Positions 24,018 through 64,000 of a DNA stretch of 64,000 nucleotides are shown here, piece after piece. The position numbers were made by a program, and so were the translations under genes. The number at the start of each line of letters is the position of its first letter. Position 1 is the stretch's first letter. Origin of the DNA: Psammoneis japonica (lineage: Eukaryota); contig QPGO01000007.1 of assembly GCA_008632985.1 (NCBI GenBank), forward strand, positions 1 to 64,000. Direction: 5' to 3'. The notes below the pieces were generated by a model. The model did not search any database, was not told the origin of the DNA, and worked only from the letters and a program-made list of their open reading frames with translations.

Positions 24018-24108
24018 TGTGTGTGTCATGATGCCGGCAATGATGGCTTTTCAATGCACACACACTATGTGAGAATGCTTGCTGCTCAGATCTCTGTGTT
24101 GCTGAGCC
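24018..24108. repeat. Dispersed ~90-bp repeat; second copy at ~32915-32998
   Basis: gtgtgtcatgatgc.ggca.tgatggc...tgcacacac...cttgct.ctcagatctc...gctgagcc in both places. Confidence 0.75.
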
Positions 24109-24199
24109 TTGGAGTCCCCCTGTGCTCCAACAGCGTGTGCCACCACTGCTGTGAGCAGTGCGCACCTTGTGCCCTGGATGGTGCACGCCACGTGCTCCC

Positions 24200-31254: not shown

Positions 31255-31700
31255 TGCAATATACAGCTACTAATAAGAGTTAATGTATCACGGCGACGTG
31301 TTACAGCCTTTAAATGTCACAAAGGGCGTGACAAAAATAACCTTTTGTCTGCATGCATACTGCATTATGAATTCATAGCGGAGTGGTACATCGTAACCAC
31401 TAGGCAGGAGGCCAGGGGTTCGAAACCCGAGTGGGAGTTGTCTGCAGCAACGTTGATCATTGTCGAACGCGTAAAACTCTGTGCAGTTCTGTATGTTCCT
31501 TCGTACGTACCCACACTGTTCCGCCAAAACCGTGCAGTGTCAGTACACGTTAGTAAAGAGCCGTATGGACGCGTGATACATGGGGAGGAGTGCAATATAC
31601 AGCTACTAATAAGAGTTAATGTATCACGGCGACGTGTTACAGCCTTTAAATGTCACAAAGGGCGTGACAAAAATAACCTTTTGTCTGCATGCATGCTGCA
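31255..31700 (+). mobile_element. Intact young TRIM (miniature LTR retrotransposon), 446 bp
   Basis: 110-bp LTRs at 31255-31364 and 31591-31700 (TGCA...TGCA) differing at one base; polypurine tract GGGGAGGAG right before the 3' LTR; 4-bp target-site duplication CTTG (31251-31254 and 31701-31704). Confidence 0.92.
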
Positions 31701-33489: not shown

Positions 33490-34030
33490 ATTGTGGTTGT
33501 GACTTGGCGTCTTCACCAGCATGATTGTTGATGCCCATGACATGCAGAGGAGCAGCGATCAACATGTCTTGACATGGAATGGTGTGGTGTTGAGTGCAGC
33601 TTGTTCCATGATTTCACCCATCAGCAAACTGAAGCCCACATCCAAGGCAAACCACACTGCTGTGGAGGTTGCCAGTGATTGATGCACAAGGGCTTGTGAA
33701 CAACTCTGCTTGATGCAAGATGCACCATGAACCACGTTGAAGTCATCCAGCCGACGACAATGTTGGGCCACCCCAGCACACTCTCCAAACGCAAGTGTGC
33801 GGCACAATCGACTCCATCTGGGTGAAGATTGTGGGTGTTGGGGCCAAAACAAAGTGCATCAAACAGTGTCATGGCAAAGATGCAGCCCGACAGCACACCA
33901 CTCCAAGACTGTGGACCGCAACAACTGTGATTGAGGCACGGAGAAAGGCGGGTGGTGCTCTGAGGTGCTGGTGGCGCGTGATGGTGAAGATTGTTTGGGT
34001 GGCATTGCACATCCTGAACCTGGCATGTGA
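33490..34030 (-). pseudogene. Hypermutated pseudogene copy of the 19446-19946 membrane-protein gene
   Basis: Collinear with 19446-19946 (flanking homology spans ~33355-34400 vs ~19310-20300); TA dinucleotides replaced; frameshifts present. Confidence 0.92.
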
Positions 34031-34443
34031 GGTGCCTGCTGCATGGATTATGGTTCAAGGTTCATCGTCATCGTGCTTCTCGGTCGCTCCTCGGTTGTGT
34101 TGGTCATCGCGTTGGAACTGTTGGGGAACTTCTTTGAATTTCCAAATTCGGACGGACGCATGGGCGGACTGTATGTTCAATGAATTTTCTTCAGCTTTGC
34201 AGTTCAAAAATGAAACTTGCACTCGTCGGTGTCTGAGATGCCCATGGCGGTGTCGAACGTTATCTTCTATGATACATCTCTTGCCTTTGTCGACCTTGGA
34301 CCGCTGGCAAAGCAATTTGCAAGTTACAGTATCACAACGGGAACAACTAATAATCAAAACGTCATCACTGCATGACGCACCAACTGGCACAGTAGAGAGC
34401 ATTTCACAAACAGCAGACAGCAAATCTTTATGCGACAAGAAAA

Positions 34444-36810
34444 ATGAAGAACACTGGCAGAGAAGAGAAAGAAACTAGCTTGCGTAGTAGCGACCATCAC
34501 GTCGCTTCTTTGAACGAAGATACACCCTCTGATGCGGCTAGTACTGCGCATAATCAAACTCATCGTGCTTCTCATCGAAGCATGACGGACGATGGCATTC
34601 AAGAACTGCGCTCACCGAGTTTGCGAAAGAGAGAGACAGTTGCACTGGATGCGGGAGACTCCTCGTCTAGCCAAACAATTGAAGAAAAGCCTCATCAAAG
34701 TGCCACCCGGTCGAGTGGGAGGTTTGGTGAAGGCGAAGATGATGTTTACATTCAGCCCACACTTCGACAGGTCTCTGGGCGACAAGCAAAACACGAAACT
34801 GCGGAAACAACGGAGGATCTAGTCTCAGAGAAAACGGACATGATGGGCAAGAGTGGGGGCCAAAGAAGCCCCCCTACAGATGAAACGGCGGACACAATGG
34901 ACGATGTCGTAGCAGAGAAAAAGGATACGCTGAGCAAGAACGTGAAATTACCGCCGCCCATTAAATTGGAGGCTGCGGAAACACTAGACCATGCAGTAGC
35001 CGAGGCAGAAATGGATATGATGAACACGTCCGATGGCGAAGAACAAGAAGATACAAACAAGGTGGAAACAAGCAAGATTTCAAAGCAACACATGAAGAAA
35101 GCGCGTGCTTCAAGTCCCTCAATAGTTGCCAAAACTGGTGCAGATTCCGAGCACGGCGCAATGCAAGCGAGTGCAAGTGCTTCCGCAGGAGTTGACGAAG
35201 GAGTGAAAACAAGGAAGAGACGATTTTTTCGCGGCACGACCAACCGCGCTTCGTCAGCGTGTACGCCAGGCAAAGCTTCGAGGAAACAGAGACGCTTTCG
35301 AGGCTTTGTCGCCTCCAGAGACGCAGGTGTGACGGATGATGATGCCGTCAGCGGTGACAACGACGAAGAAGCAGGACAAGTCAATCCGATTGCCGGTGCA
35401 TATTACGTGAGTGCTGCCGGTGAAGTGATCACTCGACAACGGGGAGTCTTGACCTCGCACCCAACCGAGAATGAGCGTGAATTGGCAGGGATTACGGCGG
35501 AAGTGACACGTAGCTACAACTCCGACACCAATTCTTTGGAGAAAGGGCAAATCTCATGGTACTGTACGAGAAAGTTCAAATTGATTGCAGTGGCTACCCT
35601 GGTGATTGCGGCTGCGGTTGCCGTTGCAGTCGGTGTTACTACAGCGGGTGGTGGTGGTGGTGGTGGTGGCACGGTAGCTAGCGAGGCCGAAGAATCTGAG
35701 TTCGAAACGAGACGAGCTGTTATTCGTGCGACTCTCCTTCCTATTTCTGGTCAAGAGGCGCTGGATGAGCCAGGCTCACCCCAGAACCGTGCGATGAACT
35801 GGGTCGCGTTCAATGACACCTCGACTCCTGTGGGTGAAGATATTACAGAGGAAGAGTTGAGCATATTGATTCGGCGATATTCACTAGCTGTTGTGTTTTT
35901 TGCTACTGAAGGAGAGTCATGGTTCAGAAGCGATAATTGGTTGAATGCCGGTGTGGAGGAATGCGAATGGGAACACATATCATGTCAAGGCGGAGAAATT
36001 GTGTCGTTCGATACGGGCACAAGAGAGAACAATGTTGCAGGGGATATACCGCCAGAGATAGGGCAGCTTTCGTTTTTGCGTGAGTTGCTGTTGCCCTACA
36101 ATCTGATTACTGGACTGCCGTCCGAGTTGGACACCCTCAACGATTTGACCTCGTTAAATCTAAAATTCAACGCCTTGGCGGGTCCCTTCCCTTCTGTGAT
36201 TTATGAGTTGACGTCATTACAAGAGCTCACGTTGGACGAGAATGGGCTTAGCGGAACGATTTCAACGGCGATTGCTGCTCTTTCAGAGCTTGAAATATTT
36301 GCACTTGCTAGCAACAGTCTCACTGGTTTGCTGACTGTCGAGTTTCAGTCACTGGCGGCCCTTTCGGAGCTGGATTTATTCAGCAATTCTTTTCAGGGCG
36401 AGGTAAACGATGTGCTTCGAGGCTTGACAAAGCTTGCGTACGTCAGGATGGACAGCAACGAGTTGTCCGGTACAATACCGACAGAACTCGGCATGTTCAC
36501 GAACTTGGTCGAATTGAATTTTGGCGACAACAGAATTGAAAATTCTACGATTCCTACAGAATTAGGGATGCTCACTGATCTAGAAGGTATTTTCCTGTTT
36601 CGGAACAACATTGTCGGTACGATTCCGTCTGAACTGGGAAGGTTGATTGGACTCAAGTCTCTCTTCATTGAGGACACAAACCTGGTGGGCTCTATCCCCC
36701 CGGAGCTATGCTCTGTGTTTGAAACGGTTCCCAATTTCCAAGTGCGACTCTTCCCCACTTGTAATGTCGAGTGCAGTTGCCGTGTCTGCGATCCAGAGTG
36801 CGACGTGTGA
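34444..36810 (+). CDS. Single-TM leucine-rich-repeat receptor-like protein (paralog 2)
   Basis: Same architecture as 16762-18921 with clearly alignable LRR region (e.g. IPPEIGQLSFLR, GDNRIENSTIPTE, CxCxVCDPEC). Confidence 0.9.
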   Translation: MKNTGREEKETSLRSSDHHVASLNEDTPSDAASTAHNQTHRASHRSMTDDGIQELRSPSLRKRETVALDAGDSSSSQTIEEKPHQSATRSSGRFGEGEDDVYIQPTLRQVSGRQAKHETAETTEDLVSEKTDMMGKSGGQRSPPTDETADTMDDVVAEKKDTLSKNVKLPPPIKLEAAETLDHAVAEAEMDMMNTSDGEEQEDTNKVETSKISKQHMKKARASSPSIVAKTGADSEHGAMQASASASAGVDEGVKTRKRRFFRGTTNRASSACTPGKASRKQRRFRGFVASRDAGVTDDDAVSGDNDEEAGQVNPIAGAYYVSAAGEVITRQRGVLTSHPTENERELAGITAEVTRSYNSDTNSLEKGQISWYCTRKFKLIAVATLVIAAAVAVAVGVTTAGGGGGGGGTVASEAEESEFETRRAVIRATLLPISGQEALDEPGSPQNRAMNWVAFNDTSTPVGEDITEEELSILIRRYSLAVVFFATEGESWFRSDNWLNAGVEECEWEHISCQGGEIVSFDTGTRENNVAGDIPPEIGQLSFLRELLLPYNLITGLPSELDTLNDLTSLNLKFNALAGPFPSVIYELTSLQELTLDENGLSGTISTAIAALSELEIFALASNSLTGLLTVEFQSLAALSELDLFSNSFQGEVNDVLRGLTKLAYVRMDSNELSGTIPTELGMFTNLVELNFGDNRIENSTIPTELGMLTDLEGIFLFRNNIVGTIPSELGRLIGLKSLFIEDTNLVGSIPPELCSVFETVPNFQVRLFPTCNVECSCRVCDPECDV

Positions 36811-45210: not shown

Positions 45211-47340
45211 ATGAAGGAACCTGAAGAAGAATCTGATGAAAATGAAATTGAGTTACTCAGCAAAGACTTTGAGCCCATGCCGACAGAGACGACAGAGGAT
45301 CTTTCCCCCATCACCAGAGACGGGTTGCACTCCACCAACTCTGGTTTGTCAACGCCAGCTGTCGACCGATGGGAAGGGTGGCGAAATGGTTGGGATGCAC
45401 GTGGTAGAATTAAATTTCCACGTGATCACACGCTTGTAACCGATGGAAATGTTCTCAAATTTAGCATGTGGTCGCTTCAGTTTTCCGTGATTTGTAGTTC
45501 AATCAATACCAAAATGTTGAACCCAAACTATCCTCTCATGGTATCTGGGATCCACCCCGAATCATTTCCAAACACGGATCCTTTTGGATTCAACTCGGCG
45601 ACGTATTTTATTCCAATGATGTCACTCTTGGGTGTAGCCATTAGCTCCCTCTTCATCGGTCGGATCTCGGATCGCGTCGGCCGTAAGAAACCGATTCTTG
45701 TCATGGCTGTGGTGAGCGGATTTGGTTCTATTGTCAAATATCTTGTCAGAGACTCATTCTGGGGATTCTGTGTAGCAAACTTGGTCTTTGGTTTCTTCCT
45801 CGGGAATCTGCCGATAGCACTGGCATACGTGGGAGACGTTTTTACGAGCAAGAAGGAAAAGCAAAGTCGTATCGGGACGCTTGTTGGTAATTTTGTTCTG
45901 GGAAATGCCGGAGGGGGGATGATTGCTATTTTAATGCAAAATTCAGGTCTCTTTTCACCGCTGTGGGTGGGAGCAGGACTGATGTTTCTCAGCGCAATAA
46001 TCACAACGTTTTACTTGATTGAACCAGGAGATGTTCGTCTCGTGCCAGTTGGCAGTGATGCGCTCATCGAAGAGGAAGAGGAAGCAGATATCCGACCGAC
46101 CGAAATCAACAAGCCCGTAATGTGGAATGTGGTTGGAGGTGCGCTTTTTGACAATTTCGGGTCGACGGCACTCTTTCCGCTGTGCCTATCGCCACTTGCT
46201 CTCGAACAGTACTTATTTGACTTGGTCCGAAACAATAAGGAGCCGATAATGTCATATGTTGGATACCAGTGGCTCTCTGTCTGTGTAGCGCTTTTGGTGA
46301 TCCCATCAACATTTGTAACACCATTTCTCTTTTCCAAGCTTGGTTGTGGTGGCACCTGTGTCCTTGGAAACATTTGCACGGCTGTCGTGACATTGGCGCT
46401 CCTCTTGATTGGCAACGGGCCTCAAACGTCAGCTGCTTTTGCTGGCTTTGTCACGGTTCTGTACACTGGCTTTCCAACCACGGTATGGAGTCAGTTGACC
46501 ACTGGACCGATGCTAGATGTATTGGCACCCGAAGACAAGATTGGGTATGTTCAGGGTCTGAACAACTCGACAATGAACTTTGGCATGGCGATTGCACCGT
46601 GGCTATACGGCCTCCTTGCCGACGCTACTGCTACAAACACGGCAATTGGAGTTGGTATTGGTATTAGCTGTTTGGCGGCTGTTGTCAATGCACCCCTTGT
46701 TTGCCGCCCAGAAATGGGACCATTAGCAAAAAAGCAGCCGCCCGAGTTGCGAATCCTGCCCGGAGAAGACGAGGAGCTGGTGGAAAAGGCACTTCATGGT
46801 GAAATCATTCCAGCCGAACAACTATTTGAGCTTAATCGCCGGAGAGCATTGAAAAAGAAGCCGGCCATTGTTGGCGCGGTCAAACCGTATGACGAGGAAA
46901 AGGATTCGCTAGACGAACTACGTGCTCAGGCGGCGGATAACTTCCGCTTCCGCAAAGAATTACAGAGTCAAGTTCTTTCGGAATTAGCCAACCCTGACAG
47001 GGAACGAGACGCCTCGGAATTGTGCGAAATGCTAAATGCGACGGTTTCGGGTGACCCACAAGTTATTAAGGAACACACGGACGCCCTTGGAATTTGGATT
47101 AGCGACTACCTCATGGACAACGGCTATCACCCACATTTGTCCAGCACAAGCATAAAACAAATGGTGCTATTGGCTTTTCCCTCCATTACGCGTGACACTG
47201 AGTATACTCCAGAAAATATTTCTCAAGCCTTGATTAGTCGAGAGCAAATATTCTCCACGTATCTGGAGGGTTACGAGAAGAAAAACTATCCGTACGGACG
47301 CATCTTTGGAAATGGTGCCAGGCCTCAGTTCTACTCTTGA
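45211..47340 (+). CDS. Major facilitator superfamily transporter with C-terminal extension
   Basis: Motif A GRISDRVGRK and about 12 hydrophobic segments; start uncertain. Confidence 0.88.
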   Translation: MKEPEEESDENEIELLSKDFEPMPTETTEDLSPITRDGLHSTNSGLSTPAVDRWEGWRNGWDARGRIKFPRDHTLVTDGNVLKFSMWSLQFSVICSSINTKMLNPNYPLMVSGIHPESFPNTDPFGFNSATYFIPMMSLLGVAISSLFIGRISDRVGRKKPILVMAVVSGFGSIVKYLVRDSFWGFCVANLVFGFFLGNLPIALAYVGDVFTSKKEKQSRIGTLVGNFVLGNAGGGMIAILMQNSGLFSPLWVGAGLMFLSAIITTFYLIEPGDVRLVPVGSDALIEEEEEADIRPTEINKPVMWNVVGGALFDNFGSTALFPLCLSPLALEQYLFDLVRNNKEPIMSYVGYQWLSVCVALLVIPSTFVTPFLFSKLGCGGTCVLGNICTAVVTLALLLIGNGPQTSAAFAGFVTVLYTGFPTTVWSQLTTGPMLDVLAPEDKIGYVQGLNNSTMNFGMAIAPWLYGLLADATATNTAIGVGIGISCLAAVVNAPLVCRPEMGPLAKKQPPELRILPGEDEELVEKALHGEIIPAEQLFELNRRRALKKKPAIVGAVKPYDEEKDSLDELRAQAADNFRFRKELQSQVLSELANPDRERDASELCEMLNATVSGDPQVIKEHTDALGIWISDYLMDNGYHPHLSSTSIKQMVLLAFPSITRDTEYTPENISQALISREQIFSTYLEGYEKKNYPYGRIFGNGARPQFYS

Positions 47341-47776
47341 AAAATGACGGCTTTGCATGTCCTCTCGGCGGTGATTAATGAATGTACTTCTGACGGGAGC
47401 AACCTATGATGAAGGAATATCAGGCGTCGATGTGTACCTGCAACTTGGACCATGCACGAGAGCTGTAATCTGGTTTTTAGTTGTACCGCGAGCGACTGTT
47501 CCGCTTCCGAACTTGAGACTGAAAGAAGTCCCTCTTCTATTCGTTTCGGAATCCAAATGATCAAGTGGTCAGGACCACCATGAGATACTACAGCTAGATA
47601 GAACGCTTGCAAAATTGTTGTTTTAGATAAGATTGTGGTAATTATAGTACAACAGCACGGTCTGATGATTAGACCATGCTCATGAGAGAGCGAGAGTAAA
47701 ACGGCAAAAAGAGGGGGTCGGTCCTGTCTTGACAAGAATAAACACGACACACACATTTTGGCTTGCCTTTTTCCCT

Positions 47777-49246
47777 TTACAAGTGGCTCATCATGGACGA
47801 CGATTCGTCATTAGTCCTTTTCTTGCCGTAGATTCGAACACGGCTGAGTCCACCGTCGGGATAAATGCTCACACGCACGTGTGTGACGGCACGAGTCGCA
47901 TTGGCAACTTGTCCGACACAAGCATCAAACACGTGTTCTGAATCGGGCGCCATGCGAACTCTTGGAACCAGTGGAAACCACTCTACAAAAGAGGAATCGT
48001 CATCCACCACCTTGGAATCCGTCACACCCCGTTCGGCAAAACACCCCTCCACCAAGACGCTCTCGGGATAGTTGCCACGAAAGTGCTTTGTGTCGAGAAT
48101 GACACGTGCAACACCGTCCATGGCGGGACTGCCCAATTTCAGAATTGCCCAATCGCAGAGTGGGCTGTCAACAAGATTGGTCTTGGGATCCTTTACCAAA
48201 ACGGTAGGACGCTCGGGATGTCTCGCCGTCTCCCAACCGCATCCCATGTCTCGGCCCAGCGTCGACTGAATCAACTTGGAGGGTTCGCCATAATGCTTGT
48301 TGGAACAACCAATGCCGACACCACCATTGGCCGATGCGGATAGCTCGGGATATTCGTAGGGAAGTCTCGAGGGAACCATGTCGGTAGAAGAGTGGCTCAC
48401 CACTGTACAAATCTTGCCCGTGGAAATGGGAGAATACATTGGCTTGGTTGTCCTTGAGCTCTCGGGTGCAGGTGTACTCCAGAGTCGCATGCGAGCGACA
48501 CCACCGTCGGGATAATAATTGACACGAACATGAGTCCCCACCATGGCCGTAGGAAGTGTAAAGTAATGCATGCGGGTTTCTTCATAGCCTGGATTGAGAG
48601 AGGTCATGGGCAAGAGTTCCTTCCACTCTTGATTACGACATGCTTGTTCCGCTTGATGAACTTCTTCCGGAGTGTGTCCCGTGCCTTGAATCATGGCGTT
48701 GCGGTGCAAGAGTCGATCCAAAACACCGGGAATCCCCGTCACCATGGCTGCTTCCTTGGAGGACGTCAAATCAGCAATTTCAATCGATAAATGCGGCACG
48801 TGGTTGCCCGTAAAGTGCGCTGTGTCGAGTTCAATCGCACTAATGTTGGCACGCTTGGCGAGTTTAATTAGACACCAGTCATGACCAGCTTCTCGTCGAC
48901 GACGTGTTTCAAATCCGTCCATGACTTTACCCTCGTTGCAATAGGCGTCCGGGTCAAATTGGGGAGCACTGTCTTGGAGTAAATGATCGGCCGATGCAAA
49001 CCACTCGTCCGTGGCAAACAAAACTTGAGCGCCGGCATGGGATGAAGCGACATTGTCGAGATGAGCGTACGGAGATGGCGGCGCAACGTTCTTGGCGGGT
49101 GTGCTAGCAGTAGCAGTACTAGAAACGGGCTTGCTGGTTACTGCAGAAACAACAACACGTTCTTGTTGCGGTTCTGCCTTGTTGGGGGTGTTCAGATAGG
49201 CTAGCTGTGAAACAACTTCATTGACAGAGTTTTTTGTAGCGAGCAT
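47777..49246 (-). CDS. ALLC: Allantoicase
   Basis: Two allantoicase repeats: FATDEWFA, MDGFETRRRR..GHDW, DTAHFTGN, YPDGGVARMR; GWETAR, DTKHFRGNYP, YPDGGLSRVR. Confidence 0.95.
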   Translation of the reverse strand: MLATKNSVNEVVSQLAYLNTPNKAEPQQERVVVSAVTSKPVSSTATASTPAKNVAPPSPYAHLDNVASSHAGAQVLFATDEWFASADHLLQDSAPQFDPDAYCNEGKVMDGFETRRRREAGHDWCLIKLAKRANISAIELDTAHFTGNHVPHLSIEIADLTSSKEAAMVTGIPGVLDRLLHRNAMIQGTGHTPEEVHQAEQACRNQEWKELLPMTSLNPGYEETRMHYFTLPTAMVGTHVRVNYYPDGGVARMRLWSTPAPESSRTTKPMYSPISTGKICTVVSHSSTDMVPSRLPYEYPELSASANGGVGIGCSNKHYGEPSKLIQSTLGRDMGCGWETARHPERPTVLVKDPKTNLVDSPLCDWAILKLGSPAMDGVARVILDTKHFRGNYPESVLVEGCFAERGVTDSKVVDDDSSFVEWFPLVPRVRMAPDSEHVFDACVGQVANATRAVTHVRVSIYPDGGLSRVRIYGKKRTNDESSSMMSHL

Positions 49247-49883
49247 GTTCTAAGAGTGTATGGTAGGCTAGAAAGAGATAGAGAGAGTTAAGGAGATTGA
49301 CAGTTTACTGTCGTTGCGGCAAATCGGAATTCTTTTTTATGATGTGTGCGTTTCGTTTCGGTTCTTGCTTCCCAGAGATGAAACGGAGTTTCGATGTTCT
49401 TTTTGTTCTCGTTTCGCTCAAAAAATGAGGGACAATACTGCATTACGGACGTGAGCGAGACGCCTACGTATTGTCTGGTATATTTCTATCGTTGCGTTAA
49501 TTGAGAGAGGTGCGTCAGAGGCATGATAGCCAATCAAAACGTCAAGGTGGTGCACGAGCGCCGGCCCAGTCAATAGTGCAACAATGATACCTATATAGAA
49601 TGAATAACTTACATAAATGTCAAATAAAACGTATTCAGCACTAATATTATATTATCTGTTCAGAATTTTACTTCAACATTCGGACAAATTCTACGGCGAA
49701 ACTCTTGCGTCATTTTGACGTGGAAAATGTCCAAACGCGCGAACGTCGCGCGACAAAGACTCTTCGAAACTCTGAAAGGTCGCTGTACCGCACTCACGTA
49801 GAATTCTACTTGTGGGGGCGTTCAACAACGGGAATACGACACACATTGTTCACCAAGACGGGCCGGGAGCAAGCAGCAGCACC

Positions 49884-52268
49884 ATGAACGGGTCCTACGC
49901 ACCGTTCGACCTGGATGCCTTTTCCAATGGCTATCAACAGCAGTCGCCTCAGCAGCAACCACAGTATCAGCAGGGAATAGCACAGCCATGTTATGAAACG
50001 TATGATCCTCAACATCAGCAACAACCCGTGGTCTTTGACAACCGCCTGTACAATTCTACAGGTCACCATACTGTGCTGCAGCCGGCGCCTGTGTTGGGCG
50101 AGTATTCGTTGGAAGCCGACCCGCTTGTTGTGATACAACAACAACACCGACAGCAACAACAAAATGCAACGACGACGACGACGACGTGGGCAACAGCATC
50201 TACTACTACTACGATTCCTCCTACAATTGATCCTCATTTAGAAGCGTTTGCTCATTCGTTTGCAGCAGACGATGATGATGTGATTTTGTCCCCAACACCG
50301 CTGAGCAGCATGTTGCTACAACAACAACCTGTACAAAATCATTCTCGCAAAATATCTCATACCGAAGAATGGCTCGAAAAAATTTCGATTGATGTTTCGG
50401 GTGTGTCGTTAGAACCCATGACGGGCACACAAATAGTCGAACGAGTCAAGACGCGAACAAGCGAAGTGCAGCGACGCTATTTGCCCTGTGTGGATTTTCT
50501 CGTGTCGTGTCAGCAAGAATTACGTGCAGGACTGGCGGCTGCCACGCAGCAACGCCGTTATCATCATCGCGGCGGCATGACGCCACGGCAGTTTTATCAG
50601 CGGTATTTAGAACCGCTCGGTGCCAAGTTTTTGCAACATAACCACGGAAAGATGGAGGTGCAGCATTTGAATCAAGCACTGGCGGAAATCAAACATCTGT
50701 GTGGCAATGCGAAAAAGGCTGAATATCAGGGATGTGAGGGCATGAAGAATGCGTTTTTGGGTGGGATGAAGGATGGAGAATCGTGGGGATTGCGCAAGTG
50801 GTTATCCAAACACGGTGGGGCGCTTTCGATTTGCAACGATTTGGAATGCATTTTGACGGCAGTCCAGAAAATGGATCGTAATGCAGAAAACACTCGCAGG
50901 CTCGCCGAGCGACTGAGACCCATGGCCAAGAGAACGTTTGATTTGTTGAAACGAGACGTGCCGGATTCGTATCAAGAACAGAGTTCGGCTCATCCGTATT
51001 TGCCTTTTTTTCATCGACTCGAGTGTGCCTTGCGTGGTGTTTCTAATTTTGACCCAGAGGATGACGATGTGATTTGTATTGACGATGACGATGAAGTTCA
51101 TGAAGTAAAGAAAAAAGCGGCTAGCAGCCCAGCCAAGAGGAAAGCGGAAGTAATGAGTCAGGGACAAGCCAAGCGAAGGAAATCAGAGATTGGTGAGAGC
51201 AGCGTCGTGACGACGACAGCAAAAGCTCGTGGTCCCCTTCATACTATTACCGAGGGCGGAGATGTTTCGGACGATGACAGCGATATCGAAGTTGTTGGAG
51301 TCTCGGGACCCGGCAGAAAAGGTATCGTCGCTGCGCCAACCCCACCGCCTGCTCCGGCGGCAGCACCGGTAGCGAAGAAGAGGTCCACCCAGCCCCTACG
51401 GTGTACACGGTGTACCATGCTCAATGCGGCCTCTAGCACAAAGTGTTGCATGTGTGATCAACCCTTTGATAAGAGTGGCAGCTATGAAGTGGAAGAGGAC
51501 AACCACTATGACGATTCGGAAACTTTTAGTGATTTTGCCGAGATTCCGGGTATGGAGGAAACCACTGCAACACTTGCAGAAGAATTTTGGGGCACAGCAG
51601 ACGGCTTGGCGACGGGTACTTCTACCGCTATTTCCACATCTACCGAGGATTCGAATTCGTCCATGACGGCGGGTGAAATGGTGCTCTTTATTGAGAACTT
51701 GGCGTTTTTGTTTGAAACTAATCAGCAAGGCACGGTTGTTCCCATAAAGTTGGACAGCTCGTGCTTTTGGAACTCGCGAGTCCAATACGCGAGCGCTCTT
51801 CGATTGTTTGCTTCCATCTTGCAAAAGCGCGACGCACAACAGTTTCTTGATCCGATCGATGAAGTGCTTTTGGTGGCCGCCGGAAAGCCGCTTTATGGGG
51901 ATTTGATTCGACATTCGATTTGCTTCCGAGACATTTGCACGGCCTTGCAGAGAGACGGCAAACTTCCGACAGAGTCGTCCTTGAAGTGGAACATGTGGAA
52001 AGGAAAAGATTTGTTGCAAGCTATCGACTTGGTGTTTGTGAATTCTCTTGCTTACAACGGCAAGGAAAGGACTAAACAACGGTCCCAAACAAACGCCTTG
52101 CGGAAAAGCTTGTGGGATGGTATAAATTCTACAATAACGTCGGTGCTTGGCGACAATCCAGAGCATCGACGACAATGCTTGCCAACAAGACGAGGGGAGT
52201 CGAGTGGTTTTGTCGTTCACAAGCAACAGCAACCGGCGACACCTACTTTTGATTCTTTTTCGCTTTAG
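49884..52268 (+). CDS. Nuclear protein with RanBP2-type zinc finger and C-terminal atypical bromodomain
   Basis: CTRCTMLNAASSTKCCMCD; QFLDPID...PLYGDLIRHSICFRDI...IDLVFVNSLAYN; Q-rich N-terminus; NLS-like KRK motifs. Confidence 0.75.
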   Translation: MNGSYAPFDLDAFSNGYQQQSPQQQPQYQQGIAQPCYETYDPQHQQQPVVFDNRLYNSTGHHTVLQPAPVLGEYSLEADPLVVIQQQHRQQQQNATTTTTTWATASTTTTIPPTIDPHLEAFAHSFAADDDDVILSPTPLSSMLLQQQPVQNHSRKISHTEEWLEKISIDVSGVSLEPMTGTQIVERVKTRTSEVQRRYLPCVDFLVSCQQELRAGLAAATQQRRYHHRGGMTPRQFYQRYLEPLGAKFLQHNHGKMEVQHLNQALAEIKHLCGNAKKAEYQGCEGMKNAFLGGMKDGESWGLRKWLSKHGGALSICNDLECILTAVQKMDRNAENTRRLAERLRPMAKRTFDLLKRDVPDSYQEQSSAHPYLPFFHRLECALRGVSNFDPEDDDVICIDDDDEVHEVKKKAASSPAKRKAEVMSQGQAKRRKSEIGESSVVTTTAKARGPLHTITEGGDVSDDDSDIEVVGVSGPGRKGIVAAPTPPPAPAAAPVAKKRSTQPLRCTRCTMLNAASSTKCCMCDQPFDKSGSYEVEEDNHYDDSETFSDFAEIPGMEETTATLAEEFWGTADGLATGTSTAISTSTEDSNSSMTAGEMVLFIENLAFLFETNQQGTVVPIKLDSSCFWNSRVQYASALRLFASILQKRDAQQFLDPIDEVLLVAAGKPLYGDLIRHSICFRDICTALQRDGKLPTESSLKWNMWKGKDLLQAIDLVFVNSLAYNGKERTKQRSQTNALRKSLWDGINSTITSVLGDNPEHRRQCLPTRRGESSGFVVHKQQQPATPTFDSFSL

Positions 52269-52972
52269 TGACCTGCCTGCCTGCCTGTGATGGGTGTGAG
52301 CAGCACTCGTTATTTTGCTTCCGAGTCGTCGTGTGTGATTGATTCGCCGAAATCGTAAAGAGATTATCATTGTATGGACAATACCGACACCTACTTACTA
52401 CAGACCGGAGAACGGACGAACTGCTCGCCAGTACAATGACGATTTTGGTTCCAGTCGCTCGGTCCTAATTTCTACTGCTAGAAACTAACTTCGTACACAG
52501 CTAGGTAGGTGTGGACACCATTTATACGTCGTAGGTGGTCTCTGCTTATCTACTGCACCGGAATGGTTCGACAATACCTCCACCGGCCCTGCCCGGGCTA
52601 GAGTTGTTCGTAGCTCTGTTGAAACCACGAGAGCCGAATCTGCGAGTGCTAGACTAGTTGCGTCAAGGTGAGGCAGTAAACATGGTGTTGTTGGTTCATC
52701 ATAAGTTTCTTTTTGCGATTCAAACACCAGGCGAACGTCACGAATACGACTGGATTTTCGATTTTGTTCATCGCGAGGTGACTGCAAGTCAAGGGCGACC
52801 TTCTGATGACGGGAGCAAGATGCAAAGGAGGTGTTACACAAAGCGCTACTCCACTGTGGGTCGAGCTGTCTTATCCTGGTTCAGGTCTCATCAGACGGTG
52901 TGCACTATCAAATATTTTTTGCCATACGTAGATCTCAATGAAAAACGATATCTACAGTAAGCAAATGCAAGC

Positions 52973-56103: not shown

Positions 56104-56709
56104 CATAACATTAACGATGATTGAAAACTCCACGTCACTAACTCGAGCGCTAATTATTCCAATGCCCTGCTGGAACTAACAAAGACACACACTTGAACAC
56201 CAGATGGTTACTTTGATTTTCACGTGGCTATGACCTCGACATTCATTGGCACAAATTGTGATCACTTCAACCCATTCCCTGCCCCTCTTGGCAAGAGCCC
56301 CCATTCTTTCACTTGGAGGGGCCAGACTTGACTGGATCTGATTTAATTGGAGTTCCATGGATGAAAAGCAGCATGGTGTGAGTGTTCATGAGTTTTGAGC
56401 CACCTGAAGCCACAACGCACACACCACAGCGATCGCACCAATGCAACTTGCTTGGCAGCATTGTCATCATGGTCACCAGATTCCTGGGCATCCAAATGGG
56501 AGAAAAATTGGTGCACTGGATGCTTGATCAAGGAGCATCTCCGTCAATTGTCCCACCTGGACAGGGCCTTGGCACAGAGGTGCTTTGTGGCTGACAATCA
56601 AGCTGTTGCTTCTCTGTGATGTCACATGTGGTCAAAATCCAACTGGCACAATCCGAGTCTGATGTCAAACCCTCAGGTGCACCTGTCTTGTCCTTTTGCT
56701 CCCATGCAC

Positions 56710-57130
56710 AATGATGCAGATGAGAGCAGTGGTTGGTGTCATTGTGCGTGATTGTGGTGGTGGGTTCTTTTGGTTTTGGTTGTGCTGTCACCCACCTTTT
56801 CAGTTCCTTTTCTGTGCAAAGAGCTGCAAGAAGCCTGCTCTCAGTTGCCACAATTGTCAAACCCTTGCTGCAATTTTGTTCACCAGACACAAGCACTTGT
56901 TGCAAGTGCAGCATTTCAAAAAAGTGTGACCAACTTGGTTGGTGGATTGTCCACTGTGCTTTCTGGAAGCAATGTTGTCAAGTTCTTGCACAGCTCAATG
57001 TGGTGTGTTGTAGATGAGTCACATTGTTCCTTTGCTCCCACACAGGCCCTGAGGAATGTTGAGCAGATGTGGTGTGATCCAGCATTGCACCTGCTTCAAG
57101 CCAGGAGATGATTGTGATCTGCACTTGCCT
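56710..57130. repeat. Dispersed degenerate repeat; second copy at ~60405-60790 plus 60970-60997
   Basis: Shared gggttctt...tgtgctgtcacccaccttttcag...ctctcagttgccacaattgt...ccctgaggaatgttgagcag. Confidence 0.85.
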
Positions 57131-57214
57131 GTCCATGTGCATGCACTGTTGTTCTTCTCTGCCCACTGCTGGGTTTTTACTCTTGTGAGCTTGTTCTGCT
57201 TGCTCATTGCCTCT

Positions 57215-57765
57215 GCTGGGCATGTGGCGACACATGCTGCACTTCCTTTGTCCAGCCATTGCCTGTTTCTGATTCCTGCCAGCCAGCTGGCTGCTTTGTC
57301 CATTGCATCCCAGTTGACATTGCAGAAGCTTTCACTTGAAATTGTTTCTGGCAGACCCAGTGCTGGCAGATGAGTTTGGTGCCACGAAGCTTTGTCAATG
57401 TGTCCCTGCTAAAACCAGCAACATTTTGTCCTCTGTCCTGTGCTGTGGAGCTGCAGGGAGGGGGTGGTCTGTGCTTTTGCCACAGATTGCATGTGGTGAT
57501 GTGTGCCACACTCTCTTTGTCCAGCCGTTGCCTGTTTCTGATTCCCGCCAGCCAGCTGGCTGGCTGCTTTGTCCATTGCATTCCAGCTGATGTTGCAGAA
57601 GCTTTCACTTGAAATTGTTTCTGGCAGACCCAGCACTGGCAGATGAGTTTGGTGCCATGAAGCTTTGTCAATGTGTCCCTGCCAAAACCAGCAACATTTT
57701 GTCCTCTGTCCTGTGCTGTGGAGCTTTGGGGAGGGGGGTGGTCTGTGCTTTTGCCCCACAGATTG
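57215..57765. repeat. ~270-bp tandem duplication
   Basis: ctttgtccagcc.ttgcctgtttctgattcc...aaaaccagcaacattttgtcctctgtcctgtgctgtggagct occurs twice. Confidence 0.9.
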
Positions 57766-60700
57766 TCCATTTGTGTCATGTTGAGCAGCATCAAAATCAA
57801 TTGAGCAGGGCTCCATGTGAGTTTGTTCTTGGCGGTGCTCTCAAAGTGTTTTGGCAGTGCTCTCAAAGTTTCAAAGTTGTTGGAGTAATTTGTGGCTGTT
57901 GTGTCTGAGGGCTGGGCAACTTTGTTGTTGTTTTTGCTTCACCAAATGTCTTCCACCAAGCATGTGGTCACTCACAGTCCTGAAATCTCTGCTCTGCATG
58001 ATTGATGCTGCATCTCCTGGGTGGCAGGTCACATTGTTCTCTCTTTAAAAGAGCGCCCTTGTCACAAATGCTGGGATTTTCCCAGCACTTCTTGTTTTGC
58101 TCAACCAGTGCCACTGGCCATGCCCTTTGTGTGAAGATCCTCAATGCACCACTTGTGGCTGGGCAGATGCTGCTGTGTTCATTGCATCAGGGGTGCAAGA
58201 GGTGGCTCTGCCTGCAGCTTCTGTTCTCACCAGCATCAGCCCTGGGTGCTGGAGCACACCCTTCCTTGTGACAGGCCCAGGTCCATTGCACATGCTGTGT
58301 GATGGCCTGCTCCAAATCAAATGTGCCTGCAAATTGCTGGTCTGAATGATGACCATGCACTTTTGTTGTGGGTGCCATTGGTGCAATCAATTTTTGAAGA
58401 GAGATGAGCAGAATCAGGGCAACTTCCTCTTGCTGGTCTTCTTGACTGTCCATGGGTCAAGAAGCTCAGGGCCCTTGTCTCCAGATCCTCCAATCTGATG
58501 TTGAGAGTTTGCTCTGTGCTGTTGAGTGGTGGAAGGACAAGAGGTGTCACACATGTGTCTCCCTTGCCATTCCATGCAACTGCTGGTGCAAGCATTTTCT
58601 GTCACCCATCATGACATCAGCTGGCATGCTCACTCAGAGACATTTGTTGCACAGGCCAAGAGTTTGGCACCCGCTCCAAAAAAAAAAATCCTCTCTGCAA
58701 TTTTTTCAGAATTCAGAAGGAGTGCACCATTGTCCAGGCAATGACTTTTGTGGGTTTGTGGCTTGCCCTCTCTTTGACATGGGTGCTGTTCTCCAACATG
58801 AACCACCGCCAATGTTTGGCCCATGAATGGGTTGCAAGTGCTCCAAAGATGTTGTGTGGTTTGTCCAAGAATGTCCCTCCACTTTGGTTTCTGGTTTGTG
58901 TTTCTTCAACAGTTCCCAGAAGAACTTCTCCTGTGGTTGTTTGCTGTTTTTGTTTGACCAAGGCTTTGACATGTTTCCTGGACAGGACAAACTCGCTCCA
59001 CAGACCAAATCCCTGAAATCCCTTTTGCTCCCAAGCACAGATCTCAGAAATGCCCTGCTGCATGGCCCTGCCATGATCAAGCCTTGCCTGACAACCAGTG
59101 CCTTGATGTGCCTGCCCCAGCTACTTGGAGATGAGACTCTGGGGCAAGAAAAGGGCAGCCCATTGCCCCCTGCATGCACTGAGTCTGGGAGAGCCAGGCA
59201 CCCAATGGGTGTGAGCAATTGCAACATTTTGCTTCTGAGTTGTCATTGTGCGTAATTGGGAAGATTGTTTTTTGGACAATGCAGGTGCCTGGAATTTGCT
59301 GCAAACCAATGAACAGATGAAATGCCGCCAGTGCAATGACAATTTTGCTGCCAGAAACAAAACTTTCACGCACATCCAGCACAAAAAAAAAATCCAATTT
59401 TAAGTGCTGTTGCACCTTTGCCCAGCAACACCAGTGCCGGCTGACCCACAACTCCAGTGCACCCTGCAAGGGGTGCAGCAGAAGATCGTGCGATCAGTTG
59501 GTCAACGTGCCGCTTTGCAGCAATGCACACCAGAGACAAAAGGTCAAGGGGAAATTGCACCAGAAGGAGATCATTGCTTTCTTTTGGAGAGGATTTAATG
59601 CACCCAAACTGCCACAGCAAAGGACAATCATGTCAAGCAGAGAATTCAAAGCCAGCGCAAACTCTGAGAGAAAATCTTTGCCTCTGAGGGAGAATCTTGT
59701 CTTCAACAAAGACTGACTGAATTTCACAATTGTGCAGACCAGAACAACAGCATGCAGTTCACTGCTCAGAACTGTGATCTTGGCAGGCCAGCAAGCAGAA
59801 AAAGGGATGTTCGGGACTTGCAAGGATGAAATGGGAAGTCTTGGCAATGTGATGAGAAGGTCGCCAGAAGAAATGTCATTCTCACTTAGAATCGACACTG
59901 AATCTTGCGCACAAAAGCCAATCCATGCAGCAAATGGACGGTCGTCAGGTGATGCCAATGGTTTGTCCATGCAAACACCCGCAGGTGCCACAACAGGGAC
60001 AGTGCTTTCACCACATGAGGTGAAGAACTTGAGCAGCCAGTGGAAGCAAAAGAAATTGTTGGGGGCTTTTGGGCATGGAAGAAGGAAGTTGATCGCATCG
60101 GAGACGCAATGACAGCCGGTGCACATTTCTGAAGTGCGCAGAATTTGCACTGGATTCTGTGTAGAAATTGCACTGAATCTGCAAAAAAAAATGCCAAATA
60201 AAACAACAAGCACGCGAACCACAAGGTGTCGACGCCAGTCATTTTCCACTAAAAATTGTTGCACATCATGGAGATGAAAGGGTGCGCCAATGGCGGAAGA
60301 TTCCAAAAGGTTGAAAAGGGCGACATCAGCACAAGAGCACACGCAGAAACACATGCAGGGGCTGCCAGTGGGTGCTTGCACAGAAAAGCATGCACATCCA
60401 GCACAAAGATGTGGGTGAGGGCAGTGGTTGTCATGGTGTGCAGTGGCGGTGGGTTCTTCTAGCTTTGGTTGTGCTGTCACCCACCTTTTCAGCAGAACCT
60501 CCATTTCTGCACAAAGAGCTGCTCTCAGTTGCCACAATTGTGATTCCCTCACTGCAACTTTGTTCACCGGACACAAGCACTTGCAAGTGTGGCATTTCAA
60601 AAAAGTGTGAGGACCAACTTGGTTGGTGGATCCTCCACTCTGCCCTCTGGAGCTAATGTGATCAAGTTCTTGCACAGCTCAATGTGGCGGTGCACTGCAA

Positions 60701-62334
60701 ATGAGCCACATTGTTCCTTTGCCACCACAGACCCTGAGGAATGTTGAGCAGCTGCACAGTCCAGCATTGCACCTGGTTCAAGCCAGTCTTCCAAGAGGAA
60801 AGCCACTGAAAGTCCTCATCTTGAACATTTGACCATTCCCTTGCAATGCAGCCTTCAAGAGCAGGAGCTGATCCCATTTGATGACATGTTGAGAAAGAAC
60901 AGCTCCCTTTGCAGCAGCGGGTTGGTGATGGATTGGCTCTGCAGCTCAGTGCCACAATGGGTCCTCCAGGCCAGGAGATGGTTGTGATCTGCACTTGCTG
61001 CTGGTTGATGTGCATGTGCTCCTGTGGTTCTTCTCCAGAGCCACCAAGTGACTGTCCTTTGACCTTTGAAGCACACACACTTGCTCTCTGGAGATTTCAC
61101 AAGGAACCCCCAAACAGCTGGCTCTTTTGGAAACTTTTGAGACCTTGAAGCCAGTCTTCTGATTGGCACCCCAATGCAGAAAAGCCAAAGACAGCGATTG
61201 AAGATCATGTCGTGCGACACCATGTGAAAGAGGCGGGCAGCATTGTGACACCAGTTCGAACAAAGAGGGTGTCTGCTCATCTGTGCATGAGCCCAACGAT
61301 TTCTTGTCAAGATCAAGGTCAAGTTCGACAATGCTTCTTGCACCGGGGCCACAGCTGGCATGCGGCAGAAGTTCCTGCCCGGGCTAGAGTCGTCTGCAGC
61401 CCTGTTGGAACCATGAGAGCCAAGTCTACGAGCGCCATCACAGTTGCGTCCAGGTGAAACAGTGAACATGATCCAAACACACCAGGCGAACGTCACGACA
61501 AACACGAGTGGATTTTCGAGTTTGTTCATCACGAGGTGACTGCAAGCAAAGGGCGACCCGCTGATGACGGGAGCAAGAAAAGGAGTTCCACAAAGCTCTG
61601 TTCCACTGGGAGTTGCAGGAAAAAACAATTGTTGCACTGCTGCTTGATGGCACGGATGATGTGACACGTGGCAGCTTTTTTTGCAGCATTGTTTGTCTGC
61701 CGCATTGCCCCGCAAACAACATCATCATCTTGTCTGCCAGTTGTCATGCTGGGTGTGTCTGTCGTGGAAACGAACAGAGGGCTGTTTCGTGCTTTTGATT
61801 TTTGTTGCTGAGAATCTTGAAATTTGCCATGCGAGAGGAAAAAGTGAGTGCTTTTGGTTGAAGAGAAATGGAGTCAACCAACCACAAGCTTCAATGGGTG
61901 TGAGACAAGAGTGTGGTTTTGAAGCTCGGCATCGGCATCTCTGTTGCATCCCCATCATCTGCACGCGGAATCATCAGAAAAAAAAATGCATGCGCGCACC
62001 GCGCTGAGGCACTGCCAGCATCTGTCTGCACCCCGCAAGGCTGACCACAAAAAAGCGCGGGAAGCACACATCACAATTGCGTCATCGGTGGGTGCATTTT
62101 CATCCCCGGGCACGCTGCCGCCACCCGCCCGTGCATCACGGAGATGCAGTCCGGCGCATGCTGTGGGCCCCATGACAGTGCTGCAGGGCCCTGCTGTGGG
62201 TCCACCTGTGGCAGGTGGGGAGGAGGGGTTCACTTTTGCTCGCGATCGACTCGCGAGGCGTTGCATCGACAATGAGATTGAGGAACATTCACGGCAACAT
62301 CATCTTGGCGACAACATGCTTTCTGCTGTTGATT

Positions 62335-63255
62335 TTAGTTGTCAAAATGATCCACATCAAATGGTGAGTGACCCATCATGAGGGCCAACTGTGTGATGTT
62401 GGCCACGGCATGAAACACATGGCAATGTGTTTCCTTCGCGTGGCGGCATCTTTTGTTGAGCATTCCGAAACGCTTGAACCATCCATTGACAGCCTCATGC
62501 CTTGCCCTTGCTGTTGTTTTCGTGGCCTCGTCTGCATTTCTTAGGCCGGATGGAGTCGAGCTGCACTGGCTCCCGTTGCTGCGGCCACCGTCGGCCAGAC
62601 ACATCTCGCCGTCTTCAAGCTCTTCAATGATCCATTCATGAGCAATGTTCAGATCCGGCAACCCAGCTGGGTGCGGCCCATTGACCCAAACAATCCACCC
62701 TGTCTGAATGCATGTTCCAATTTCATGCCGCAGCCCAGCACCGTGGAATTTGTGGGAGAACCACATTGGATCGAATGGTGATGGCTCGTAGATTCTGAAA
62801 TCAGTGCCGTCGAGTGTCACCAAACATCTGCTGCCGTTGTCATCAATGAAGCGGTCTTCCCAGTGAATCTAAGAACAAGGTGTCAGTCCATTTGTTTCAC
62901 ACACATGAGCAATGTCTGGAATGGTGCGCGCCAAATTCAACTGTCCAACAAGTTGAATTCTGACCCAAACCCATTTTCTCAGCGTGTCTTCATGGATTTT
63001 ATTACAGATGCCAGCAACGACTGTCTCAGATTCATGCAATTTGAGAAAGCAAAGGGTGTGGAGCAGGTGAATGGGCAAAAAACCTTGTGGCATTTTCCCG
63101 TCGTCAATGAGAAGCCCCCACAACTCAGATGCCACTTCTTCTGGGGTGCAGAAGCATGCTGCAGGTGACCCTTTTGGCTTCTGAATGATCGTCTGTGCCA
63201 AGCACTCTGTGGCCTCTTTGGGCAGTCTCATGATTGGCAATTGGCAGTGTGCCAC
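62335..63255 (-). mobile_element. PIF/Harbinger-type DDE transposase (DDE_Tnp_4-like), mutated; probably two exons
   Basis: HLLHTLCFLKLH...TLRKWVW, then IHWEDRF...VTLDGTDFRI.EPSPF...WFSHKF...GLRHEIG.CIQTGWIVWVNGP...LADGG...RARHEAVNGWFKRF. Confidence 0.9.
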
Positions 63256-64000
63256 AGTGTGTCACTTTAGCGTTTGTGCCAGTCTCTACCACTGGCAGCT
63301 GCTCTCTGCTCTGCAGCAGCTGGCTGCTCTAGAGAGTGGCACAGCAGTTGTTTGACATTTGACAATTGTGTTTTGTCGTCTTCACGCAGTTGGGGTTCTC
63401 ATTAGAAGAGGCCTTTGGTGAGATTCCGTCGTGTTTGAAGAAAATACGAAAAAAATGCGATTCGGGTGTGGTTTCCGAATGGTGACTTTGGGACGTTCGC
63501 AATGGGCAACTTTGGGCGTCGTTTTGTCAACCGGAACACGGTAGAATGACCATTCCAACGCGTGCTCTTAGCTCAACTAACACAGCAGTTTACATGCAAC
63601 ATGTGACACAGAATTTTAAAACCACAATCCATGGTTGGTGGTGCATTAAAAAAGCATTCTCATTCTACAAATCGAAATGAAATCGCCTTTTCACAGACGA
63701 AAAGCGCACGGAAATGTGCCAATGAAAAGCCAAAATGAACATCAGGAGCTAGTTTGCCATCAGTGCCATCGCAAACACACACCAAAGCTTGGGATTCAGC
63801 CACTCATTCTTCAGTTGAGATGGTCCAAAGTCATCGTTCTGGAGCTGAAAATCGTTTTGGGTGTGATTTGGGAACAATTTTTGTGTGGTCTTGGAATGTT
63901 TTTCGTGTGGTCTTGAGGGAATCTTCGTTGTCAAGAGGCCCTTTCTCAATGTTGGCGGTTGGTGTTTTCTCAAATCTCATTTTGGCGGTTGGAATTTATT

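What the first reader, a model, noticed from the sequence alone, without database searches (positions are those of the whole stretch)
56170..63350. Second TA-depleted domain; its CpG-retaining part separates TA loss from CpG decay
TA is nearly absent from ~56.2 to ~63.35 kb. In 56.2-59.3 kb CpG is also lost, but in ~61.2-62.9 kb many CpGs persist (gcggccaccgtcggcc, cgcgatcgactcgcgaggcg). There the Harbinger transposase is still largely open, yet positions usually Tyr read His/Cys/Arg (GLRHEIG, NGPHP, MCLADGGR, KRCRH). Inference: TA conversion comes first in young elements and can disable a transposase through Tyr codons without introducing stops.
Basis: partly seen in the sequence, partly recalled or inferred. 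Interest (0 to 1): 0.72.

Follow-up and report, generated by a model that had tools for sequence, protein, structure and literature searches.

The report
TA-erasing mutation outruns CpG decay
In this diatom's transposons most TA steps were rewritten to TG or CA after insertion and well before CG steps decayed, which turns conserved tyrosines of a transposase into histidine, cysteine or arginine without creating stop codons; a like process has been reported in one unrelated alga.

Summary
Confirmed. 56,170-63,350 holds 30 TA where 446 are expected. CpG o/e is 0.09 at 56.2-59.3 kb and 0.73 at 61.2-62.9 kb, because a young PHIS (Harbinger-type) transposon starting at 61,609 sits in older debris. 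Copies elsewhere in the genome, some nearly unmutated, show TA>TG/CA arising after insertion on either strand (601 transitions, 1 transversion). TA loss exceeds CpG loss in 28 of 28 copies of a second family; none of 190 sampled kilobases lost CpG without TA. The window's His/Cys/Arg stand where 120 homologues have Tyr or another aromatic; one Tyr is invariant (120 of 120). Corrections: the domain runs on to about 72.5 kb, the single 'stop' is an intron acceptor, the splice donor is itself mutated, and conversion is patchy, so it is no simple clock. Loss of function is inferred, not shown. Best mechanism: targeted DNA adenine deamination at T-A-Y; no enzyme identified; error-prone polymerase is the rival. 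Closest precedent: TpA hypermutation in Bigelowiella natans (2026 preprint). The scan noted this process many times on other DNA of this genome. One metagenomic protein pair hints at a second host.

The parts
56230..64000 (.). TA-depleted domain (continues beyond the window to about C9:72,500)
   Evidence: TA positions thin out after 56,229; o/e values; continuation in L088
56230..59370 (.). Old decayed DNA of unknown origin, both TA and CpG lost; no other copy found apart from the allele; holds a tandem duplication at about 57,235-57,800
   Evidence: TA o/e 0.057, CpG o/e 0.094; own-genome search finds only the allele and short internal matches; depth about 61 like the neighbouring gene; duplicate units compared
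59384..60390 (.). 1-kb multi-copy element with an A-run at one end and a long target-site duplication (core at 59,371 and 60,393); intermediate state: 43 of 48 TA and 29 of 51 CpG lost against copy L039
60410..61605 (.). Older decayed DNA, part of it 79% like 56,706-57,104
   Evidence: TA o/e 0.056, CpG o/e 0.34 for 60,390-61,600
61606..61627 (+). Target-site trinucleotide CTG (61,606-61,608) and left terminal inverted repeat of the PHIS transposon (from 61,609)
61609..64000 (-). Young PHIS (Harbinger-type) DNA transposon, left part; alignable to C9:65,515. 73 of 93 inferred ancestral TA sites converted, 23 of 114 ancestral CpG lost
62932..63231 (-). Transposase exon 1 (ATG at 63,231), with a 21-bp in-frame deletion
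62869..62931 (-). 63-nt intron; donor reads GC where relatives read GT; acceptor TAG is in frame
62335..62868 (-). Transposase exon 2, DDE domain; converted codons His at 62,725-62,727 and 62,671-62,673, Cys at 62,599-62,601 and 62,446-62,448, Arg at 62,581-62,583
   Evidence: PF13359; columns against 120 homologues; coordinates

Best explanation
A host process mutates A to G in genomic DNA at TpA, on either strand, best at T-A-C and T-A-T, within transposon-type DNA after it has inserted. Each hit turns TA into TG or CA and removes the target. Most TA of a new copy go before its CpG decay much; CpG decay then proceeds as a second, slower clock, so old debris lacks both. The window shows three stages side by side. 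Because the change cannot make a stop codon, genes die by missense (all Tyr codons are targets), by splice-site loss and by stop read-through while frames stay open. SHOWN: post-insertion, both-strand, transition-only, context-biased TA conversion; its lead over CpG loss; its effect on codons; recent activity between the two haplotypes. INFERRED: loss of transposase function; targeting through silent chromatin; chemistry by adenine deamination (A>inosine>G) by a TadA/ADAT-like enzyme (about 50% for this step alone).
For: Seven copies against the little-mutated L021: TA lost 19/113, 76/115, 82/110, 92/115, 97/114, 102/114, 22/23; CpG lost 2/98, 5/123, 7/117, 3/123, 19/120, 20/116, 9/30. In the window's own family 51 sites read CA in some copies and TG in others, in 31 patterns among 6 copies: independent events after insertion. 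1-kb family: TA loss > CpG loss in 28 of 28 copies; CpG loss follows transversion divergence (rho 0.93) while TA loss is already 0.51-0.96 at up to 0.5%. Genome sample: 70 of 190 kilobases have TA o/e < 0.15; all 45 with CpG o/e < 0.3 are among them; 16 have lost TA with CpG o/e >= 0.6. 13 young copies: 306 CA, 295 TG, 5 CG, 1 transversion. Base 3' of the A: C or T about 3.5-4 times A. Haplotypes over 9,993 bp: differences at 5 of 59 TA-type and 23 of 281 CpG sites, 2 elsewhere, 0 transversions. Homologues: Tyr48 118/120, Tyr96 120/120, Y/F at 66 120/120, F/Y/W at 141 120/120. TA loss is not higher near decayed CpG (z 0.8, -0.2, -0.3). Same signature measured directly in B. natans mutation-accumulation lines (bioRxiv 10.64898/2026.01.13.699255).
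Against: No candidate enzyme stands out: the deaminase genes found look like ordinary housekeeping sets. No strand-coordinated runs of TG or CA (7 of 7 copies, p >= 0.11), which a processive single-strand deaminase might leave. The one natural ADAT2 with DNA activity that I read about prefers GAA, not TA (PMC10354150 passages). Two Pol eta-like genes exist and the secondary context A-A-Y (12.7-20.4 per 1000) resembles the WA motif. An endonuclease V gene, which could act on inosine, is present. Conversion is patchy within elements, so 'first in young elements' is a tendency. Reference copies are themselves partly hit, and divergence in the 1-kb family includes subfamily differences. No methylation, chromatin or expression data.
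Confidence: 0.6

Rival explanations
1. Error-prone DNA synthesis: a Y-family polymerase (eta or iota type) puts G opposite template T in TpA during repair or replication of silent DNA; repeated rounds erase TA.
For: POLH is error-prone at template TW, giving WA hotspots (PMC6423074 passages). Five Y-family loci, two with Pol eta as best match. Secondary A>G at AAC/AAT and its excess next to converted TA (25 versus 6.5 per 1000) fit patch synthesis. Preference of Pol iota for G opposite T is recalled, not from a call.
Against: 606 transition outcomes to 1 transversion at TA; that eta-type mutagenesis gives many transversions is recalled. AAA and AAG are hardly touched (0.8 and 1.3 per 1000). 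TA loss reaches 68-80% with 0-3 CpG lost and is not clustered near lost CpG, so T:G mismatches from 5mC cannot be the trigger.
Confidence: 0.22
2. A covalent mark on T or A in TpA of silent DNA (for example oxidised thymine or N6-methyladenine) miscodes or deaminates, as 5mC does at CpG but faster; the mutation is a by-product of marking.
For: Fits independent single-site events with no strand runs, both strands, sharp context, and protection of element ends (57 of 70 kept, 20.5 expected). TA next to CpG is protected (70 kept, 48.5 expected), which suggests interplay with another mark or a bound protein.
Against: No such mark at TpA is known to me in diatoms; I did not search for TET/JBP or adenine methylase genes. 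Rates near 1e-6 per generation in only some B. natans lines point to a switched enzyme.
Confidence: 0.12
3. No local mutator: the elements are TA-poor by inheritance or selection (or edited as RNA by an ADAR-like enzyme), and the His/Cys/Arg are the family's normal residues.
For: The second ORF and one subterminal region have few ancestral TA sites in both families, so some TA poverty is inherited or native. Two A_deamin genes are present.
Against: Copies differ at the same site as CA versus TG; near-intact copies exist (L021, L039); the two haplotypes converted one site (62,279) in opposite directions; this is a DNA transposon hit on both strands and in introns; homologues keep Tyr.
Confidence: 0.03

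Closest known systems
TpA hypermutation of integrated NCLDV and virophage DNA in Bigelowiella natans (Mettrop et al., bioRxiv 10.64898/2026.01.13.699255; parts 1-4 of 5 read; supplements not seen)
   Same: TpA>TpG/CpA, almost only transitions, local to foreign or selfish DNA; that paper also finds DDE and reverse-transcriptase domains among TpA-poor CDS and proposes an ADAT2-type deaminase.
   Different: Here a diatom, not a rhizarian; near saturation over about a third of sampled kilobases rather than two regions and 124 small clusters; DNA transposons, a copia element and duplicated genes are hit; a 3' pyrimidine preference, the order against CpG decay and codon effects are not described in the parts read. 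Here the rate per generation is unmeasured.
Repeat-induced point mutation (RIP) of ascomycetes (recalled; link of fungal DNMT4 to RIP and presence of DNMT4 in diatoms from PMC9998398 passages)
   Same: Dinucleotide-specific, near-saturating transitions in repeats, copy by copy, with genes spared.
   Different: Opposite direction: RIP turns CpA into TpA and makes stops; this removes TpA and cannot make stops. Dependence on homology, meiosis or DNMT4 untested.
CpG decay of methylated transposons (DNMT5a methylates P. tricornutum TEs; PMC9998398 abstract and passages)
   Same: Explains the CpG loss in the older parts; same end products TG/CA.
   Different: Slower in young copies and separable from TA loss. 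Methylation itself not measured here.
PHIS superfamily of DNA transposons, groups PIF/Harbinger and NuwaI (PMC4482050 passages)
   Same: PF13359 DDE transposase, TIRs, two ORFs, 3-bp TSD.
   Different: TSD is mostly CNG, not TWA, so not PIF/Harbinger in the strict sense; nearer NuwaI (CWG); no Myb/SANT match in ORF2.

Membership tests
B. natans-type TpA hypermutation | Almost only A:T>G:C transitions at the target | tested here: met
   306 CA, 295 TG, 5 CG, 1 transversion in 13 young copies
B. natans-type TpA hypermutation | Mutated A preceded by T | tested here: met
   L015 against L021: A>G at TA 92/230, CA 1/356, AA 2/400, GA 1/293; weak secondary contexts AAY and CAC/GAC
B. natans-type TpA hypermutation | Confined to foreign or selfish DNA, host genes spared | tested here: met
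   Gene-rich flank o/e 0.56 against 0.067; allelic spectrum in genes is ordinary, with 39 transversions among 117 differences. Exception: duplicated methyltransferase genes are hit
B. natans-type TpA hypermutation | Rate about 1000 times background per generation, in a subset of lines | not testable with these tools
   Only a relative figure: between haplotypes 8.5% of TA-type sites against 2 differences in about 9,300 other bases
B. natans-type TpA hypermutation | ADAT2-like candidate with HxE-PCxxC and the Asn tied to DNA editing | tested here: inconclusive
   An ADAT2-like gene on C26 has HAE, PCIMC and a downstream Asn motif; not aligned to BjADAT2; such motifs are common to ADAT2 proteins (recalled)
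RIP (ascomycetes) | C>T at CpA, gain of TpA and of stop codons | tested here: not met
   TA is lost, CA/TG gained; no sense-to-stop path
RIP (ascomycetes) | Triggered by sequence duplication, premeiotic, needs RID/DNMT4 | not testable with these tools
   Duplicated methyltransferase genes are TA-erased, but 56.2-59.3 kb has no copy found; 27 C5-methyltransferase matches, not classified by a tree
ADAR RNA hyper-editing of retroelements | One strand, RNA intermediate, broad A>G including AA | tested here: not met
   Both strands equally, DNA transposon, intron included, AAR spared
PHIS superfamily | DDE transposase of PF13359 type | tested here: met
   E 2.9e-7; acidic residues of the DGTD, LADG and RHE motifs present
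PHIS superfamily | TIRs and short TSD | tested here: met
   Both TIRs and an identical 3-bp repeat in 8 of 10 full-length copies; the window copy's right end was not found
PIF/Harbinger group (strict) | TSD 5'-TWA-3' | tested here: not met
   0 of 10; 5 CWG, 2 CSG, 1 GAG, 2 mismatched
PIF/Harbinger or NuwaI | Second ORF with Myb/SANT domain | tested here: inconclusive
   A second ORF under purifying selection (dN/dS 0.07 between families, dS near saturation) with 71 homologues has no Pfam match; exons may be missing from the query
NuwaI group | TSD 5'-CWG-3' and phylogenetic placement | tested here: inconclusive
   CWG in 5 of 10 copies; no tree built

The most novel reading that the evidence does not exclude
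Diatoms, like a distant rhizarian alga, have a dedicated host enzyme that deaminates adenine in double-stranded genomic DNA at T-A-Y, is aimed at newly silenced or duplicated DNA before or apart from 5mC decay, and kills transposons while leaving their frames open: a SAR-wide mirror image of RIP and a natural adenine base editor.
Probability: 0.35. Interest if true: 0.9.

Novelty: new variant of a known kind. Interest (0 to 1): 0.7.

Why it matters
Targeted, heritable A>G mutation of nuclear DNA has one precedent that I found, a 2026 preprint. Here it is far stronger, acts on ordinary transposons, and comes with graded copy series, a context fingerprint and haplotype differences that make the enzyme and its targeting testable. 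It also matters for annotation: dead elements keep long open frames, CpG content stops being a guide to age, and divergence dating of repeats is inflated by TA sites.

Tried and rejected
Assembly artefact: short-read contigs agree. No RNA holder listed; no conclusion on expression. Strand-coordinated clusters: none. Clustering of TA loss near decayed CpG: none. Candidate enzyme: PF00383 9 matches, PF14437 5, PF02137 4 at two genes; the C79 A_deamin gene has homologues across named diatoms; none singled out; no match to PF02245, which does not show absence. Longer transposase homologues: none. Viral contigs: none. Five metagenome loci with 41-53% identical transposases are not TA-poor (o/e 0.75-0.93). 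None of the best 120 of 3182 homologues has His/Cys at four Tyr-rich columns; ranking by score disfavours converted copies. The idea that ORF2 evolved to be TA-free was dropped: it is natively Tyr-poor and copies differ at its few Tyr. Atlas search of ORF2: no usable hit. Origin of 56.2-59.3 kb: no Pfam match for the ORFs tried. Edge sharpness could not be judged: element ends are TA-free or protected. Literature: searches found nothing on TpA mutation in diatoms; two searches found only the B. natans preprint. Most subscription papers are outside that library, and the preprint's supplements could bear on the 3' context.
Full report
Observation. The window is C9:1-64,000 of a 91.4-Mb genome in 597 contigs. 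A host gene from contig C79 has named homologues in Attheya, Skeletonema, Cylindrotheca, Seminavis and Thalassiosira, so the host is most likely a diatom. 56,170-63,350 has 30 TA (o/e 0.067) with CA and TG at o/e 1.75-1.77; the gene-rich flank has o/e 0.56. Shuffles never fall below 391 TA. CpG o/e is 0.094 in 56,170-59,300 and 0.73 in 61,200-62,900. Short-read contigs give the same letters. The domain does not stop at 63,350: it runs to about C9:72,500 over a second ORF and a copia element whose 1,666-codon frame is open and has 0.9% Tyr.

Anatomy. The region is a nest of different ages. 56.2-59.4 kb and 60.4-61.6 kb are old debris with no other copy found but the allele on C373. A 1-kb multi-copy element with a long target-site duplication sits at 59,384-60,390. 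A DNA transposon begins at 61,609 with a TIR after CTG; 8 of 10 full-length relatives have an identical 3-bp duplication, mostly CNG and never TWA. By the groups in PMC4482050 (passages read) it is PHIS, nearer NuwaI than strict PIF/Harbinger. The transposase has two exons; the 'stop' is the intron acceptor. So the CpG-rich part is simply the youngest insertion.

TA conversion happened after insertion. In six copies of the window's family (the allele L002 left out), 255 of 324 variable columns lie in TA/CA/TG/CG sites; 51 sites read CA in some copies and TG in others, in 31 patterns; 39 more still show TA in some copies. A sister family at 66% identity has a nearly intact member, L021. Against it, L015 has lost 92 of 115 TA and 3 of 123 CpG. 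In 13 young copies of two families the reference TA became CA 306 times, TG 295, CG 5 and a transversion once. At 62,279 the two haplotypes took opposite routes from a TA that five paralogues keep.

Order. The seven copies against L021 lost 17-96% of TA but 2-30% of CpG. In the 1-kb family (28 copies against L039; 30 of 55 matches were fetched) TA loss exceeds CpG loss in 28 of 28; CpG loss follows transversion divergence (rho 0.93), TA loss is 51-96% already at up to 0.5%. Some copies may be alleles, older ones include subfamily differences, and the references are partly hit, so fractions are approximate. In 19 arbitrarily chosen 10-kb stretches of large contigs, 70 of 190 kilobases have TA o/e < 0.15; all 45 with CpG o/e < 0.3 are among them, and 16 lack TA with CpG o/e >= 0.6. 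The window copy has lost 73 of 93 inferred TA and 23 of 114 CpG. Between haplotypes both processes were still running at similar rates on what is left: 5 of 59 TA-type and 23 of 281 CpG sites, 2 other differences in 9,993 bp.

Against a simple clock. L020 and L021, which share a flank and look like alleles, keep 92 of 117 and 107 of 116 TA sites in the transposase half, yet only 14 of 27 and 9 of 20 in the ORF2 half, like the other copies. The last 300 bp of the element keep 57 of 70 TA where context predicts 20.5. The process is therefore patchy and depends on place, which suggests chromatin or bound protein (inference).

Effect on the protein. The intact relative reads GLRYEIA, NGPYP, FYLADGAY and RTYRH. 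Among the best 120 homologues, position 48 is Tyr in 118, 96 is Tyr in 120, 66 is Phe/Tyr in 120, 141 is Phe/Tyr/Trp in 120, 174 is Tyr in 109 of 111; the window has His, Arg, His, Cys, His. Position 90 is variable (Val 59, Tyr 45; His/Cys 1). The window protein has 1 Tyr in 279 codons, L021 has 15 in 303. Five converted full-length copies carry 28-36 TA-linked missense changes, 12-15 at Tyr, and a read-through of the stop. No sense codon can become a stop by this change. The Arg arose in two steps (five paralogues have the Cys codon), as did the GT>GC donor change; these are among 5 new CpG in this copy. If the intron is kept, its in-frame TAG ends the protein before the DDE domain (inference). 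The acidic motifs are intact. Loss of activity is likely but unassayed.

Mechanism. A fit to 1,105 site-copies gives 3.5-4 times more A>G when C or T follows the A, with 5'-CG before TA lowering it to 0.28; weak secondary sites are AAC, AAT, CAC and GAC, enriched next to converted TA. There are no strand runs and no link to nearby CpG loss. Purity of transitions and a fixed 5' T favour adenine deamination; the likeness to the U-A-C substrate of TadA is recalled, not tested. The genome has ADAT2-like, TadA-like and two A_deamin genes, none unusual, and two Pol eta-like genes. Amphioxus ADAT2 can deaminate A in DNA but prefers GAA (PMC10354150 passages). I put deamination at about 50%, polymerase error at about 25%, a miscoding base mark at about 15%.

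Known and new. Mettrop et al. (bioRxiv 10.64898/2026.01.13.699255; parts 1-4 of 5 read) measured TpA>TpG/CpA at about 6e-7 per site per generation in two viral inserts of Bigelowiella natans and proposed ADAT2. Searches found no report for diatoms. It works like RIP in being copy-by-copy and saturating, but fails RIP's defining change. The scan has noted the process, the order and the T-A-Y rule many times on other DNA of this genome; those notes are not evidence here.

A second host. P0127 and P0316, one 90% cluster from ENA metagenomes, differ at 13 of 170 residues, 7 of them Tyr>His/Cys. The best match of P0127 in this genome is 76%, so the family probably comes from another organism. The other 40 member pairs in 8 clusters show 0 such changes. 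This is protein evidence only, from one pair.

Verdict. Real, well supported as a mutation process and as an order of events; enzyme and targeting open. New variant of a kind described once. Interest 0.7.

Noticed in passing
window 23,600-33,900: First TA-depleted domain (TA o/e 0.09, CpG 0.18) with a TA-rich island at about 31,260-31,680.
   Followed up: no
L088:2513-8335 (C9 about 66.5-72.3 kb): Copia element with an open 1,666-codon frame, Tyr 0.9%, CpG kept: a second young element in the same state.
   Followed up: partly
L116, L117, L118, L122 (C297, C301): Repeated copies of a C5 DNA methyltransferase gene with TA erased (0-1 Tyr in over 300 codons) and CA/TG differences between copies; duplicated host-type genes may be targets.
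   Followed up: partly
L112, L113, L119: Intact C5 methyltransferases whose motifs recall RID/DNMT4 (recalled, no tree); an upstream frame at L119 has a chromodomain match.
   Followed up: no
L091/L092 (C61, C293): Apparent allele pair of a PHIS copy whose transposase half escaped conversion while ORF2 did not, beside a TA-free tandem repeat.
   Followed up: partly
L086:3935-5475 and L087:3672-5388: Two A_deamin (ADAT1/ADAR-type) genes; the C79 one is conserved across diatoms and abuts a TA-depleted block.
   Followed up: partly
L063:310-1785: CDA-fold deaminase in one frame with a 2OG-Fe(II) oxygenase.
   Followed up: no
L189, L191: Two Y-family polymerases with Pol eta as best match.
   Followed up: partly
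window 46,100-52,400 against C373: Allelic divergence changes in blocks (about 3% at 46-48.3 kb, very low at 48.4-51 kb and beyond 54.7 kb), as after gene conversion or loss of heterozygosity.
   Followed up: no
P0241: ENA metagenome protein 96.6% identical to the ORF2 copy L154 and also Tyr-free: this species or a close one occurs in a metagenome.
   Followed up: no
window 394-4200, 16,735-18,921, 34,396-36,810: LRR-Roc-TIR and LRR genes among the host genes.
   Followed up: no
window 9,001-10,000 and 12,001-13,000: Two GC-rich kilobases with low TA (11 and 8) and mild CpG loss.
   Followed up: no
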